A DNA stretch of 64,000 nucleotides from the IMG/VR virus record IMGVR_UViG_3300032116_022045; one strand, given 5' to 3'. Under the pieces are notes generated by a model. That model was not told the origin of the DNA and made no database searches. It saw nothing but the letters and a program-made list of their open reading frames with translations. This DNA comes from a virus. Its lineage: Duplodnaviria; Caudoviricetes. The number at the start of each line of letters is the position of its first letter. Within the stretch, counting starts at the first letter, position 1. This document shows positions 49,848-53,153 of the stretch, piece after piece. Both the position numbers and the translations under genes were made by a program.

Positions 49848-52800
49848 TTATTCATCTAACATTTTATCAATTTCATTTATTATCTGATTGATATCGTTAT
49901 TTATCTTGACATTTTTATCAATAATTTTAATATTATCCATTTTTTTATTTACGTCCAGACCATCAACAGATTCAATAAGGTCAACAAACCTATTTTTATA
50001 TTTATTGGTTCTATTAACTAATTTATTAGTCAATAATTTTTTTTCCTCTGTTATTAATTTTAACCCTTCTGTTAATGTTTCACTAGCCTCACCACCTGCT
50101 GGCGCTTCTGGTGCAGCAGCTTCACCACCTTCTGGTGTCTCACCACCTGTCTCACCACCTAATTCTGGTGTTTCGCCACCTTCTGGCGTTTCTGGTGTTG
50201 TACCACCTAATCCACCACCTAGACCTCCACCGCCTCCGCCACCAAATGATGGTGTTGCAGTTTCAGTGCTAGCAGCAGCTTCACCACCGCCTTTTAAAGC
50301 AGCTTCATAATCACCATATATTTTATCAACATCATCAAACATACCAGTATGCTTAATAACATTAGCTGTATTAGCTATTTCACCAGATGCGGCTTTTTCC
50401 ATTCTTTGTTCTAATAAATCTTTTTTAATTTCATCATTAGACCAACCTAAAATTTCTCTATGCGCCCTTGTCCAAGACATAGTACCAAAACCATTACCAA
50501 TATCTGAAACAGCGTCTTTAAGTAATGTTATTTTTTGTTGTAGATGTTCAATTTTAAGCATTTCAGCTTGTGTTGATGGATTGTTTAATGTTAATGAAAA
50601 ATTATCCAAATCATCTTCAAAACCTAATAAATATAAATGTATAATAGCAATCTTATTAAGTTCTTGTAACATTGATTGTTGTACTCTATTTACAGTTCTT
50701 GAAAAACGTATATCTTGTAATGCTAAATTTTTACCTTCACCAGATGTTTCATCAAAACCTAAAAATGGTTTAGGTATTCTTAACGCAGTAAATAAATTAT
50801 TTCTAAGGTATTCTATATCTGCTATTTGGTCCAAATTAGACGCACCTGGTAAAGTATCTATAGGATTTGGTGCATCTTCTGAACGAACTGGAATAAAGAA
50901 ATCTTGGTCGTTTGATAATTGATTAAATCTTAAATCCATTTGACCAGTTTGAGAATCAATTATTGGTGTTCTTTTAAATCTATCAGCAATTTCATTAACA
51001 TAAGCTGGTACATCAGCATCATCAATATTACCAACATAAATTTTATAAACTCTTCTTTCTGGTGCTCTAGTCACACGATATACTAACATTGAATCTTCAG
51101 CTAAAATAAGCTGTTTCCATATACGTCTAGCCTTTTCTAAAATAGATGTTCCGTAAGGTAATCTTCTATCATCACCTAATAATCTAAAGTGAGCCATTTG
51201 CCATGAATTAAATTCAACATCACGACCTCTCCAATAAAATTTAACTTTGTCTGAATTTGGAACATTATTATTAACACTATGACTTCCAGAAATCATATCA
51301 AATAATCCGCTTTCTCTTCTCTCCATTTCATAATTAGGCATTTGTTTAGCGCCAATTATACCATGTTTATCATTAACATTAAGAAAAACGAAATTATCAC
51401 CATATTTACAATTTGACAAAAACACACCAGAAGTTCTTGAATATGAACTATTTGAATCAAACCCACAGACTGGAAAATTGTGTCTATCATGTTCACCATT
51501 TGGCCCGACAGCTTCTAAACAATAAACATCAGCTGTTTCATTTAATTTAATAACAGAAATTACTTTATGATTAATAACTTTAGTTTTTGTTTTACCCTCA
51601 AAAATAGCTTTGCATTTTAAATATTCTTTATCTAAAATTATTTCTGGTTTAATACTAAAAACAAATTCAAAATAATTTTTATTTGTTTTTCTAAAAATTA
51701 ATTTATTTAAAGTTGTCGTGTTAATTGATTTAGTTATATCTTTTCTAAGTGTGTAGGTCTCTTTTAATAAATTGATAAATTCTTGGTCTGTTTTTAATAA
51801 TTTAGCTAATTTATTAATACCTATATAATTTTGGTTATTTATAATAATATTAGAAATATAATTTAAACACGCATGACTAATTTCAATAGTCATACCTTTT
51901 TTAGTTTTTTTAATAAAATCTTTGTTTGACCAATTAACTAACATTTTATTTGAGCGTATTTCATTATGTTCTGTGTGTAAATCACTATTATTATACAACT
52001 CAAAAAATTTTGGGTAAACACCAGACATTTCTTCAGATAAACGTTTTTTTCTCTTATCTGACCTTAAATATTTATCAATACCTTCTAATCTTTTCTTTAT
52101 AACTTCTGGTTTTTTACGATACTCGTTTAAATTTTTAGATAATTTTTCATGCAAATTAGAATGTTCATTAAAACTCATTCTTTTTAAATTATTTGGGTTA
52201 TTATCTCTTTTTTTAAAATTAATATGGTGTGTTAACCATTTTTCACCGCTAATTTTTTCTTTTTCAGAATCAATTAGACAATTTTTAGCGATTATTCTAT
52301 GAGTATATTCATATTTATCACTACTAGGGTTATAAATTTTTTCATAACCATTTAATTTACCATAGTTTTCTACACTAGTTTTTGTGTAAAACGGCATTAA
52401 AGACTGACCTTCAGTTAATTCATCAGCTCGTTTAAAAGAACCGTCTCTAAGCATATATTCATGGTCTGGTGTTGTATCAATATAAGTACCATCATCTAAT
52501 GTTACCCTATATAATTCACTATTTCGTCTGGTTAAATCACACCAAACTATTTTACTTGGAACAATAGCCTTAGTAACATCTTGAATAGCATATGACCAAA
52601 CTTCTTCACCATTTTTAACTCTATTAGATAATTCTTTAATTGTTATTTCTGTACCATCTAATAATGGGATAATACTATTTTCTCTAATAGGTGTATTTCT
52701 TGTCCACATAGGTAATGATGTATGTATATCTAATCTATTAAAAAATAAATCTTGTAATATTGTTTTAACACGATTACTTTCAGAATAAACATTTAATACT

Positions 52801-53153
52801 TTTCCTTTATCATTAACTGTTGTTGCTTCTTCCATAATAATATCAAGAGCAGCAGCAATGATTGGATAAAATTCCATAGCTTCAAAATCAGCATAAGAAC
52901 CTATACGAGTTGTTTCATAATTAATTGATTGTTGATAAAGTCCGTTTTCGACTTTTTTCCACATTTGAGACAAATATTTATTTTGTTGTGCTTGTAATTT
53001 CGCCAACTCATATTCTCTCTTATCTGTGGTTTTTAATAATTCTTTACCTATATTAAATCTTTGTGGTTGATTATATACATTCTTTAATTTAGCAGAATCT
53101 GGGCCAATTACTTGACCTAATCTTTGAAATATTGTTAATTTTTTATCAGACAT
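49848..53153 (-). CDS. gp20: Portal protein (gp20-like) with intein; about 674 aa after splicing
   Basis: YADFEAMEFYPIIAAALD, WTRNT|CKYGDNF, PYGTSILE.AR..W.QL, YR..RAPERRV, TLPGASNL. Confidence 0.95.
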   Translation of the reverse strand: MSDKKLTIFQRLGQVIGPDSAKLKNVYNQPQRFNIGKELLKTTDKREYELAKLQAQQNKYLSQMWKKVENGLYQQSINYETTRIGSYADFEAMEFYPIIAAALDIIMEEATTVNDKGKVLNVYSESNRVKTILQDLFFNRLDIHTSLPMWTRNTPIRENSIIPLLDGTEITIKELSNRVKNGEEVWSYAIQDVTKAIVPSKIVWCDLTRRNSELYRVTLDDGTYIDTTPDHEYMLRDGSFKRADELTEGQSLMPFYTKTSVENYGKLNGYEKIYNPSSDKYEYTHRIIAKNCLIDSEKEKISGEKWLTHHINFKKRDNNPNNLKRMSFNEHSNLHEKLSKNLNEYRKKPEVIKKRLEGIDKYLRSDKRKKRLSEEMSGVYPKFFELYNNSDLHTEHNEIRSNKMLVNWSNKDFIKKTKKGMTIEISHACLNYISNIIINNQNYIGINKLAKLLKTDQEFINLLKETYTLRKDITKSINTTTLNKLIFRKTNKNYFEFVFSIKPEIILDKEYLKCKAIFEGKTKTKVINHKVISVIKLNETADVYCLEAVGPNGEHDRHNFPVCGFDSNSSYSRTSGVFLSNCKYGDNFVFLNVNDKHGIIGAKQMPNYEMERRESGLFDMISGSHSVNNNVPNSDKVKFYWRGRDVEFNSWQMAHFRLLGDDRRLPYGTSILEKARRIWKQLILAEDSMLVYRVTRAPERRVYKIYVGNIDDADVPAYVNEIADRFKRTPIIDSQTGQMDLRFNQLSNDQDFFIPVRSEDAPNPIDTLPGASNLDQIADIEYLRNNLFTALRIPKPFLGFDETSGEGKNLALQDIRFSRTVNRVQQSMLQELNKIAIIHLYLLGFEDDLDNFSLTLNNPSTQAEMLKIEHLQQKITLLKDAVSDIGNGFGTMSWTRAHREILGWSNDEIKKDLLEQRMEKAASGEIANTANVIKHTGMFDDVDKIYGDYEAALKGGGEAAASTETATPSFGGGGGGGLGGGLGGTTPETPEGGETPELGGETGGETPEGGEAAAPEAPAGGEASETLTEGLKLITEEKKLLTNKLVNRTNKYKNRFVDLIESVDGLDVNKKMDNIKIIDKNVKINNDINQIINEIDKMLDE
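51411..52691 (-). mobile_element. Class-3-like intein (427 aa, Pro1, Cys at F4) with HNH endonuclease
   Basis: Block A PIRENSIIPLLDG; block B TTPDH; HNH THRIIA...HHINFKKRDNNPNNL; block F VYCL; ends FLSN with +1 Cys. Confidence 0.88.

What the first reader, a model, noticed from the sequence alone, without database searches (positions are those of the whole stretch)
51411..52691. Pro-initiated, class-3-like intein with HNH endonuclease in the portal protein, lacking canonical class-3 residues
Seen: removing P155..N581 rejoins WTRNT|CKYGDNF. Block A begins PIRENSIIPLLDG, with no N-terminal nucleophile, and block F reads VYCL rather than VYDL. Established: class 3 inteins use the block F Cys to form a branched intermediate and typically carry a W(B12)-C(F4)-T(G5) triad. 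Here B12 is Tyr, G5 is Leu and the penultimate His is replaced by Ser (FLSN), so it deviates from the class-3 signature. It carries an HNH rather than LAGLIDADG homing domain and sits in an essential dodecameric structural protein, so splicing rate could time head assembly.
Basis: partly seen in the sequence, partly recalled or inferred. Interest (0 to 1): 0.72.

Follow-up and report, generated by a model that had tools for sequence, protein, structure and literature searches.

The report
Proline-first HNH intein in phage portal
The portal (DNA-entry) gene of this uncultured T4-like lake phage is interrupted by a self-splicing intein that starts with proline and probably starts splicing with an internal cysteine. 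It belongs to a large lineage I could not find described, which appears to have reached this known "class 3" strategy on its own from ordinary inteins.

Summary
Residues 155-581 of the 1101-aa gp20-type portal (window 51411-52691, minus strand) are an intein. More than 35 intein-less homologues at 83-86% identity read PMWTRNT|CKYGDNF.

The intein starts with Pro and has Cys at block F position 4 (F:4). It has Tyr at block B position 12, Leu at block G position 5 and Ser instead of the penultimate His. The first extein residue after it (+1) is Cys, and it carries an intact HNH nuclease.

It is one of hundreds of relatives inserted at three or more sites in T4-like portals. Every Pro1 member checked has F:4 Cys (164/164). 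Nearly all have a second Cys at position 51 (171/182) and a six-residue block-F loop insertion (G-P-N-G-E-x-D-R). None has the penultimate His. Mini-inteins that lost the HNH keep these residues.

The nearest relatives are class-1-signature inteins with the same HNH (hhalign E 9e-54). The class-3 prototype is not detectably related (probability 1.6%).

My reading is an active homing intein using class-3-type chemistry, from an independently derived lineage. The chemistry is inferred, not shown. I found no evidence that it times head assembly.

First-stage readers of this scan noted the same family in at least three other genomes.

The parts
49848..53153 (-). Portal gene (T4 gp20 type), a 1101-aa precursor that includes the intein
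   Evidence: ORF. PF07230 E 3.8e-68 and PHROG 213 portal E 3.5e-56. In relative L003 the gene order is terminase, portal, then prohead protease.
52692..53153 (-). N-extein, aa 1-154, ending ...SLPMWTRNT
   Evidence: Intein-less alleles are continuous across this point.
51411..52691 (-). Intein, 427 aa, from Pro1 to Asn427
   Evidence: AF2 model pLDDT 91.5 with the HINT fold.
52653..52691 (-). Block A, PIRENSIIPLLDG. Pro1 is not a nucleophile.
   Evidence: Every site-a intein found starts with Pro apart from two nested Cys1 variants; the count was selected on Pro1. I8, P9 and L10 are invariant in 82 site-a inteins.
52539..52541 (-). Cys51 (in W50-C51), a lineage-specific second cysteine between blocks A and B
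   Evidence: Invariant in 82 site-a inteins. Cys in 171/182 Pro1 inteins against 19/209 Cys1 relatives. In the profile alignment it aligns with the His of the W-H pair in DnaE inteins.
52449..52490 (-). Block B, GTYIDTTPDHEYML: Thr74 (B:7), His77 (B:10), Tyr79 (B:12)
   Evidence: His77 is invariant. B:12 is Tyr, Phe or Trp across the family.
52131..52355 (-). HNH endonuclease core (...YEYTHR...THHINFKKRDNNPNNLKRMSFNEHSNLH)
   Evidence: PHROG 7545 and 21964 HNH, E 2e-9 and 4e-9. I-HmuI 1u3e E 6e-4. Invariant or nearly invariant H, H, N, N, H, H in 96 relatives.
51582..52130 (-). Helical region after the HNH core, presumed DNA-binding part of the homing endonuclease
   Evidence: All-helical in the AF2 model. 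Weak RuvB_C winged-helix hit, E 0.64. Homologous over its full length to the same region of class-1 relatives. The function is inferred.
51468..51530 (-). Block F, DVYCLEAVGPNGEHDRHNFPV. Cys391 (F:4, codon 51519-51521) is the proposed first nucleophile. It also holds the six-residue loop insertion within GPNGEHDR (51483-51506), His404 (F:13) and Phe406 (F:15).
   Evidence: F:4 is Cys in 164/164 Pro1 inteins and aligns with the F:4 Asp of a class-1 relative. The insertion, with E400, D402 and R403, is present in at least 92% of Pro1 inteins and absent from Cys1 relatives apart from two site-a variants.
51408..51431 (-). Block G plus the +1 residue, SGVFLSN|C: Leu425 (G:5), Ser426 (G:6, no penultimate His), Asn427 and Cys+1
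   Evidence: None of 122 Pro1 relatives has a penultimate His, against 15/24 Cys1 relatives.
49848..51410 (-). C-extein, aa 582-1101, starting CKYGDNF. It includes a Gly/Glu/Thr/Pro-rich low-complexity tail.
   Evidence: Residues 641-912 match the Portal_T4 profile.

Best explanation
This is an intact, mobile HNH-type homing intein in the single T4-type portal gene. It must splice out for the phage to make a working portal.

Pro1 cannot perform the usual N-S acyl shift. Splicing is therefore most likely started by the internal block-F cysteine, Cys391, in these steps:
1. Cys391 attacks the Thr154-Pro155 peptide bond, helped by His77 (B:10), and forms a thioester branch on Cys391.
2. The N-extein is passed to Cys+1.
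3. Asn427 cyclises and releases the intein.
4. An S-N shift gives ...WTRNT-CKYGD...

That is class-3 chemistry. The supporting residues differ from the published W-C-T signature. This lineage has Tyr/Phe at B:12, Leu/Val at G:5 and no penultimate His. In their place it has a conserved second cysteine (Cys51) and a six-residue block-F loop insertion carrying invariant Glu, Asp and Arg next to the F:13 His.

The lineage is specific to T4-like portals. It occupies at least three insertion sites and descends from class-1-type inteins that carry the same HNH nuclease.

Shown here: the boundaries, the fold, the conservation and covariation, the relationships and the population polymorphism. Inferred: the order of chemical steps, the roles of Cys51 and the loop, and nuclease activity.
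For: Boundaries and the non-nucleophilic residue 1 are shown.

Covariation across 150 representative hits drawn from 1.8 billion proteins:
- F:4 is Cys in 164/164 Pro1 inteins, whether +1 is Cys (108), Ser (46) or Thr (10).
- Position 51 is Cys in 171/182 Pro1 inteins against 19/209 Cys1 inteins.
- None of 122 Pro1 inteins has a penultimate His, against 15/24 Cys1 relatives.
- The block-F insertion is specific to Pro1 inteins.

23 mini-inteins of 155-280 aa survive, and 21 of them have lost the HNH motif. All keep F:4 Cys, 22 keep Cys51 and 21 keep the loop motif. These residues therefore serve splicing, not homing.

Published class-3 inteins also begin with Pro (MP-Be, PMC2807308). With a natural Cys+1 they still require F:4 Cys (Bvi IcmO, PMC5222942). 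One functions without Trp and without both helper His residues (AceL NrdHF, PMC7891396).

The gene is evidently needed. Intein-bearing alleles lie on phage contigs of up to 379 kb. Splicing residues are invariant across 82 site-a inteins at roughly 50-77% identity.

Mobility is supported by three results:
- A relative 99.5% identical over aa 1-771 carries an extra 425-aa intein at DTLPGA|SNLDQ.
- The target site is conserved in an intein-less allele.
- The HNH motif is invariant.

Ancestry:
- hhalign of the Pro1 profile against a relative with Cys1, F:4 Asp and His-Asn|Ser gives probability 100% and E 9e-54 over 392 columns. Against MP-Be it gives 1.6%.
- The profile hits class-1 structures (NrdJ-1 6e-9, DnaE 5e-7) but no class-3 structure at E<=1.
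- VIA-align Z is 20-22 to class-1 inteins and 16-17 to 6zgq, 6bs8 and 6rix.
- In the trees the Pro1 inteins are nested among Cys1 inteins. A single Pro1 clade is compatible with the data (p-AU 0.72).
Against: No biochemistry exists for any member. The branched intermediate on Cys391 is an inference from covariation and from analogy with class 3.

Two of the three class-3 signature residues are missing, as is the penultimate His.

With Cys at +1, a class-2-type direct attack cannot be excluded for site-a members from sequence alone.

The tools return no model coordinates, so I could not measure distances between Cys51, Cys391, Cys+1 and the scissile bond.

Tree roots are not inferred. The quick trees have many unresolved forks. 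Independent origin therefore rests mainly on the profile comparisons.

Seven 'FCV' inteins in a 2020 survey of 1702 class-3 inteins may already be members of this lineage, so the lineage is not wholly unseen.
Confidence: 0.72

Rival explanations
1. Class-2-type splicing, as in the KlbA intein. Cys+1 directly attacks the Thr154-Pro155 amide, and Cys391 only organises the active site, as the F:4 Asp does in class 1 and class 2.
For: Residue 1 is not a nucleophile and +1 is Cys, as in Mja KlbA. The Trp and Thr that help the F:4 Cys in canonical class 3 are absent.
Against: Sister Pro1 inteins at the other portal sites have Ser or Thr at +1 (56 of 164), yet all keep F:4 Cys. Ser or Thr attacking an amide directly is not a known route. 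In Bvi IcmO, a class-3 intein with a natural Cys+1, Cys+1 could not replace F:4 Cys (PMC5222942). Cys1 relatives mostly carry Asp at F:4, so Cys at that position tracks the loss of the N-terminal nucleophile.
Confidence: 0.08
2. A conditional, redox- or metal-gated intein. The cysteines Cys51, Cys391 and Cys+1 form a disulfide or a zinc site that holds the portal precursor inactive until conditions in the infected cell allow splicing. This role would add to class-3-type chemistry rather than replace it.
For: Cys51 is nearly invariant in the Pro1 lineage. In the class-3 Msm DnaBi1 intein, a cysteine between blocks A and B (Cys48) forms a regulatory disulfide with the F:4 Cys and is essential for splicing (PMC6195587). 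By counting back from the B:10 His, Cys48 corresponds to about Leu60 here, which would lie on the return strand of the same hairpin as Cys51. Cys51 aligns with the His of the W-H pair in DnaE inteins. From my own recollection, not checked here, that His is a zinc ligand together with F:4 Asp and Cys+1 in the Ssp DnaE structure.
Against: No distances could be measured and there are no experimental data. 11 of 182 Pro1 inteins have Ala or Val at position 51, so Cys51 is not obligatory. Presence/absence polymorphism and mini-intein decay fit a selfish element, not a retained regulator. The cytoplasm is reducing.
Confidence: 0.15
3. A class-1 intein that starts at Thr154, with the boundary shifted by one residue.
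For: Thr is a permitted class-1 nucleophile, and residue 154 is Thr in this copy.
Against: All intein-less alleles keep the residue, reading WTRN[T/V/A]-[C/V/A]KYGD. The -1 residue is Leu, Met, Val, Ile or Ala in 28 of 82 site-a inteins. It is Leu, Met, Phe or Gln at the other sites.
Confidence: 0.01
4. A dead or non-splicing insertion that is tolerated within the portal, or that marks a defective phage.
For: It lacks Cys1, the penultimate His and Thr G:5, all of which usually matter for splicing.
Against: There are hundreds of homologues on long phage contigs with an open frame and invariant splicing residues. HNH-less mini-inteins keep the splicing signature. The insertion sits in a strongly conserved portal motif.
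Confidence: 0.03

Closest known systems
Mycobacteriophage Bethlehem 'DnaB' intein (MP-Be), the class-3 prototype; in the GenBank record it lies in gp11 (PMC2807308)
   Same: It starts with Pro1, has an obligate Cys at F:4, ends in Asn, is phage-borne and carries a homing endonuclease. The proposed chemistry is the same: a branch on F:4 Cys, then transfer to the +1 residue.
   Different: MP-Be has Trp B:12, Thr G:5, a penultimate His, Thr at +1 and a different, non-HNH endonuclease insert. It lacks Cys51 and the six-residue block-F insertion. There is no detectable relationship beyond block B (hhalign probability 1.6%).
AceL NrdHF split intein (PDB 6ZGQ; PMC7891396)
   Same: It is an experimentally proven class-3 intein from a lake metagenome that departs from W-C-T (it has M-C-T) and lacks the penultimate His. 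This shows the class-3 route tolerates such losses.
   Different: It keeps Thr G:5, has Ala1 and Ser+1, also lacks the F:13 His, is naturally split and has no nuclease. The structural match is weaker than to class-1 inteins (Z 17.0 against 20-22).
Bvi IcmO intein (PMC5222942)
   Same: It is a class-3 intein with a natural Cys+1. Experiments showed that F:4 Cys is still required and that the class-2 route is not used.
   Different: [quoted passage not shown] Here a whole clade has Cys+1.
Class-1 HNH inteins in the same T4-like portal genes (for example P0131 residues 859-1268: Cys1, F:4 Asp, His-Asn|Ser)
   Same: They share full-length homology, covering the splicing domain, the HNH nuclease and the helical region (hhalign E 9e-54). 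They have the same host gene and the same IPLLDG block A.
   Different: They carry the standard class-1 residues. They lack Cys51 and the block-F insertion and keep the penultimate His.
Msm DnaBi1 class-3 intein (PDB 6BS8; PMC6195587)
   Same: It has F:4 Cys plus a second, essential cysteine between blocks A and B that can form a disulfide with F:4 Cys.
   Different: Its Cys48 is described as non-conserved and falls about nine residues later in the alignment than Cys51 here. It has the W-C-T signature, Ala1 and Ser+1, and sits in a bacterial helicase.

Membership tests
Intein (HINT splicing domain) | In-frame insertion whose precise removal restores a conserved host motif | tested here: met
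   More than 35 intein-less homologues read PMWTRNT|CKYGDNF. The DNA target site is conserved in L003.
Intein (HINT splicing domain) | Blocks A, B, F and G with B:10 His, a C-terminal Asn and a +1 Cys, Ser or Thr; HINT fold | tested here: met
   PF14890 E 8.4e-17, above the cut-off. Residues confirmed. AF2 pLDDT 91.5. Z 21.7, rmsd 1.6 A over 147 residues to NrdJ-1.
Class 3 inteins (Tori et al. 2010) | No Cys, Ser or Thr at intein position 1 | tested here: met
   Pro1. The boundary is fixed by intein-less alleles and by a variable -1 residue.
Class 3 inteins (Tori et al. 2010) | Cys at block F position 4 | tested here: met
   Cys391 aligns with the F:4 Asp of a class-1 relative. F:4 is Cys in 164/164 Pro1 relatives. 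Together with the row above, this satisfies the working definition used for the 1701-intein survey (PMC7891396).
Class 3 inteins (Tori et al. 2010) | Trp at B:12 (the W of W-C-T) | tested here: not met
   Tyr79. Across the family the position is Tyr 72, Phe 72, Val 8, Trp 6, Ile 6.
Class 3 inteins (Tori et al. 2010) | Thr at G:5 (the T of W-C-T) | tested here: not met
   Leu425. Across the family the position is Leu 84, Val 68, Ile 6, with Thr in only 2. The triplet Y-C-L is absent from the published table of 1702 class-3 inteins, where the nearest entry is FCV with 7.
Class 3 inteins (Tori et al. 2010) | Ser or Thr at +1 (typical, not absolute) | tested here: not met
   Cys+1. Sister sites have Ser or Thr. 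Bvi IcmO is a published exception.
Class 3 inteins (Tori et al. 2010) | F:4 Cys is the obligate first nucleophile, with a branched intermediate on block F | not testable with these tools
   This needs mutagenesis and detection of the intermediate. Only covariation evidence is available.
Class 3 inteins (Tori et al. 2010) | Descent from the canonical W-C-T clade | tested here: inconclusive
   hhalign to MP-Be gives 1.6%. No class-3 structure is hit by the profile at E<=1. The nearest relatives are class-1-signature inteins. Deep intein phylogeny cannot be resolved with about 150 columns.
Class 2 inteins (KlbA type) | No N-terminal nucleophile, direct attack by Cys+1, and no F:4 nucleophile | tested here: not met
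   F:4 is an invariant Cys. Pro1 relatives with Ser or Thr at +1 keep it.
HNH homing endonuclease (I-HmuI-like, HNH_3) | beta-beta-alpha-metal HNH motif with the catalytic His and Asn residues | tested here: met
   PHROG HNH families E 2e-9 and 4e-9. PDB 1u3e E 6e-4. Invariant H160, H161 and N173 and nearly invariant N169, H182 and H186 in alignment A1. Pfam HNH_3 itself is below its cut-off (10.9 against 24.8 bits).
HNH homing endonuclease (I-HmuI-like, HNH_3) | Cleaves the intein-less allele | not testable with these tools
   Only indirect evidence: presence/absence polymorphism among near-identical portals and HNH-less decay forms.
T4 gp20 portal protein | Portal_T4 domain within the head-gene neighbourhood | tested here: met
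   PF07230 E 3.8e-68. T4 gp20 structures match an intein-less homologue at E about 1e-23. The terminase lies upstream in the window, and a prohead protease lies downstream in L003.

The most novel reading that the evidence does not exclude
The lineage is more than a class-3 look-alike. It is a separately evolved splicing solution in which Cys51 takes a chemical part. Cys51 could act as a third thiol in an acyl relay between Cys391 and Cys+1, or as a disulfide or zinc gate on Cys391. The E-x-D-R block-F loop would replace the Trp, Thr and His helpers. This would amount to a fourth sequence and mechanistic type of intein whose splicing could depend on the redox or metal state of the infected cell.
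Probability: 0.15. Interest if true: 0.85.

Novelty: new variant of a known kind. Interest (0 to 1): 0.6.

Why it matters
Class-3 inteins are thought to share one W-C-T signature and a single phage origin. An attempt to convert a class-1 intein by grafting W-C-T failed, which led its authors to suggest that class 3 did not arise by simple divergence (PMC7664689).

This portal lineage offers a natural counter-example with its steps still visible in living sequences:
- class-1 relatives with F:4 Asp;
- Cys1 relatives that already carry F:4 Cys;
- Pro1 forms that have gained Cys51 and a six-residue block-F loop and lost the penultimate His;
- two Cys1 variants nested inside the Pro1 clade.

These forms make two questions testable at the bench: which changes are needed to move the first nucleophile from position 1 to block F, and whether Trp and Thr are truly required.

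Compact 155-170-aa members with Cys, Ser or Thr at +1 could also be useful protein-engineering tools.

For phage biology, it shows that the portal gene of aquatic T4-like jumbo phages is a strong intein hot spot.

Tried and rejected
- Thr154 as a class-1 nucleophile was rejected.
- The whole genome is not held for this window, so I could not check for a second portal gene or further inteins outside the window. Within the window there is no second intein of this family.
- The tools return no model coordinates. I could not measure distances between Cys51, Cys391, Cys+1 and the scissile bond.
- Literature searches for the DnaE His48 and Arg50 environment found nothing usable. That point rests on my recollection and is marked as such.
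- Tori & Perler 2011 could not be read.
- The phage GenBank collection holds no Pro1 member. The best hit, LR756508.1, carries Cys1 portal inteins.
- phmmer did not align T4 gp20 over the insertion site, so I did not map the site onto the portal structure.
- Base composition gives no sign of recent foreign origin: GC3 is 0.13 in the intein and 0.12 in the exteins.
- In the free full-length tree a small Pro1/Val51 group fell outside the main Pro1 clade. The constrained single-clade tree was in fact better by 18 lnL units (p-AU 0.72), so I do not claim two origins of Pro1.
- I found no papers describing inteins in T4-type gp20 portals.
Full report
**What is in the sequence.**
The minus-strand ORF at 49848..53153 encodes a 1101-aa protein. 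It matches Portal_T4 (PF07230, E 3.8e-68) and Intein_splicing (PF14890, E 8.4e-17, above the curated cut-off). PHROG portal and HNH families also match.

It reads PIRENSIIPLLDG ... SGVFLSN and is followed by CKYGDNF.

A search of 5.8 billion proteins returned dozens of portal homologues with an insertion at this point. It also returned more than 35 without one (674-694 aa, 83-86% identical). The latter all read PMWTRNT-CKYGDNF. The intein is therefore exactly Pro155 to Asn581, with Cys at +1.

The -1 residue is Thr in this copy. In 28 of 82 intein-bearing alleles at this site it is Leu, Met, Val, Ile or Ala. The alternative that Thr154 starts the intein is therefore excluded.

An AlphaFold2 model built on 96 relatives has mean pLDDT 91.5. 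It shows a HINT fold interrupted by a largely helical insert. Foldseek and VIA-align place it among inteins, with Z 21.7, rmsd 1.6 A and 147 aligned residues against NrdJ-1.

**The nuclease.**
The insert matches PHROG HNH endonuclease families (E 2e-9 and 4e-9). As a family profile it matches the HNH homing endonuclease I-HmuI (1u3e, E 6e-4). Pfam HNH_3 alone is below threshold. The motif residues in THHINF...NNPNNL...NEHSNLH are invariant or nearly so in 96 relatives. This points to a nuclease under selection. Cleavage activity was not tested.

**The family.**
A phmmer scan of 1.84 billion representative proteins gave 3709 hits at E<=1e-3 and 403 at E<=1e-30. [quoted passage not shown]

Pro1 inteins of this type occupy at least three portal sites:
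- W-x-R-N-x|P...N|CKYGD, the site occupied here;
- L-R-Y-N-x-L|P...N|S-x-D-E/Q-D-Y;
- L-P-G-G-Q-F|P...N|T-G-D-I-E-D.

Single portals carry up to six inteins.

| Feature | Pro1 inteins | Cys1 relatives |
|---|---|---|
| Cys at F:4 | 164/164 (with +1 Cys 108, Ser 46, Thr 10) | 10/24 (Asp in another 10/24) |
| Cys at position 51 | 171/182 | 19/209 |
| Penultimate His | 0/122 | 15/24 |
| Six-residue block-F loop insertion | at least 92% | absent apart from two site-a variants |

The insertion reads G-P-N-G-E-x-D-R and lies between the F:4 strand and the F:13 His. Its Glu, Asp and Arg are close to invariant.

23 mini-inteins of 155-280 aa survive, and 21 have lost the HNH motif. All keep F:4 Cys, 22 keep Cys51 and 21 keep the loop motif. 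These residues therefore belong to splicing, not to homing.

**Relationships.**
The Pro1 profile aligns over 392 columns with an intein from the same kind of portal that has the full class-1 signature. That alignment covers the splicing domain, the HNH and the helical region. The relative has Cys1, F:4 Asp, His-Asn|Ser, Ala at position 51 and no loop insertion. The comparison gives probability 100% and E 9e-54.

Against the class-3 prototype the same profile gives probability 1.6% over 21 columns of block B. I took the prototype, the MP-Be 'DnaB' intein, from gp11 of the GenBank record.

Against PDB sequences the profile finds class-1 inteins (NrdJ-1 6e-9, DnaE 5e-7) and no class-3 structure at E<=1. 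MP-Be finds the class-3 structures at about 1e-24. Structurally, class-1 inteins score Z 20-22 and the class-3 structures 6zgq, 6bs8 and 6rix score 16-17.

In a tree of 161 N-terminal regions, the Pro1 inteins form one group. That group is nested inside well-supported clades that otherwise consist of Cys1 inteins.

A full-length tree of 84 HNH-bearing relatives was built with the four trait columns removed.
- A clade with 99% SH-aLRT support holds 54 Pro1 rows plus three nested Cys1 rows.
- Outside it lie Cys1/F:4 Cys/His-Asn inteins.
- Further out lie Cys1/F:4 Asp/His-Asn inteins.

Holding all Pro1 rows together gives a better likelihood than the free search (p-AU 0.72). One origin of Pro1 within this family is therefore compatible with the data.

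I read this as a class-1 HNH intein lineage of T4-like portals that went through three steps. It first acquired Cys at F:4. It then lost Cys1 and the penultimate His. Along the way it gained Cys51 and the block-F loop. The direction depends on the root, which the trees do not give. The argument is that everything surrounding the Pro1 clade begins with Cys1.

**Mechanism.**
Pro cannot supply a side-chain nucleophile. The residue that tracks its presence without exception is the F:4 Cys. Solved inteins place F:4 between the two splice junctions (PMC6195587).

Three published cases bear on this:
- MP-Be begins with Pro and needs F:4 Cys (PMC2807308).
- Bvi IcmO has a natural Cys+1 and still needs F:4 Cys, with no class-2 bypass (PMC5222942).
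- AceL NrdHF splices by the class-3 route with Met instead of Trp and without either helper His (PMC7891396).

The most likely route is therefore this:
1. Cys391 attacks the Thr154-Pro155 bond, with His77 assisting.
2. The acyl group is transferred to Cys+1.
3. Asn427 cyclises.
4. An S-N shift completes ligation.

All four steps are inferred, not shown.

The roles of Cys51 and the loop are unknown. Cys51 aligns with the His of the W-H pair in DnaE inteins. I recall, without having checked it here, that this His sits next to F:4 and +1 in the Ssp DnaE structure. In Msm DnaBi1 a cysteine on the neighbouring strand forms a disulfide with F:4 Cys and is essential for splicing. A structural or activating role is my default. 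A redox or metal gate is a minority possibility. I could not measure distances because no coordinates are returned.

**Selfish element or regulator.**
A relative 99.5% identical over residues 1-771, including this intein, carries an additional 425-aa Cys1 intein at DTLPGA|SNLDQ. That intein is absent here, and identity falls to 89% downstream of it.

An intein-less allele keeps the DNA target nearly unchanged around the insertion point, although the genes are only 75% identical overall. Some intein-free alleles have Val or Ala instead of the +1 Cys.

These features, together with the HNH-less decay forms, describe the usual homing cycle. Nothing supports a role in timing head assembly.

**Novelty.**
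Pro1, F:4 Cys, HNH inteins and inteins in portal genes are each known. A 2020 survey of 1702 class-3 inteins lists 1685 W-C-T, seven F-C-V and no Y-C-L. The seven may be members of this lineage, but they were not discussed.

I found no paper on inteins in T4-type portals or on this signature. The phage GenBank collection holds no Pro1 member.

First-stage readers of this scan noted the same family in at least three other genomes. A follow-up on another genome described an unrelated Pro1 intein in NrdJ.

I classify this as a new variant of a known kind. It is class-3-type by the working definition. It has a different set of helper residues and an apparently separate origin from class 1.

Noticed in passing
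P0004 (relative of window 49848-53153), residues 772-1196: A portal 99.5% identical over aa 1-771 carries a second, 425-aa Cys1 intein (CISLNT...FIKN|S, with Thr at F:4) at DTLPGA|SNLDQ. This intein is absent from the window's gene, and identity downstream of it drops to 89%. This looks like recent intein gain or loss with co-conversion.
   Followed up: partly
P0123 (2818 aa), P0214 (3009 aa) and other portal homologues: T4-like portals of these aquatic phages are strong intein hot spots. Up to six intein N-terminal regions occur in one gene, mixing Pro1 and Cys1 types. Of the proteins with a hit, 137 of 224 carry two or more.
   Followed up: partly
P0068-P0075, P0079, P0084, P0085, P0087, P0097 at the site equivalent to window 51408-51413: Some alleles without an intein at this site read WTRNT-V-KYGD or VRNL-A-KYGD, with Val or Ala in place of the +1 Cys. 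Such alleles could not support splicing if invaded, so they may be intein-resistant variants.
   Followed up: no
window 49980-50310 (-), portal aa about 950-1060: The portal ends in a Gly/Glu/Thr/Pro/Ala-rich low-complexity acidic stretch (GGGGGGGLGGGLGG...ETPEGGETPELGGETGGETPEGGE...) followed by a Lys/Asn-rich helical tail. One source names homologues 'membrane protein YgcG'. T4 gp20 did not align to this region in the search of solved structures.
   Followed up: no
P0151 residues 146-567 and P0154 residues 148-563: Two site-a inteins nested inside the Pro1 clade begin with Cys (CLHGNT..., CVHENT...) yet keep Cys51, F:4 Cys and the block-F loop. They are natural 'class 3 with Cys1' forms or revertants, and would be useful controls.
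   Followed up: partly
L001:7578-9296 (-), Mycobacterium phage Bethlehem gp52 phosphoesterase: Bethlehem carries another intein-like insertion in its phosphoesterase. It appears to start at Cys after ...HEGNHD and reads ...EVWCLRV...HLTGN|S, giving Cys at F:4, Thr at G:5 and Gly at G:6. The 'DnaB' intein of the literature lies in gp11 of the GenBank record, which is annotated as hypothetical.
   Followed up: no
window 49888-50310 (+) and 50581-50922 (+): The two plus-strand ORFs inside the portal gene look like chance reading frames on the opposite strand of low-complexity coding sequence. I do not consider them genes.
   Followed up: no
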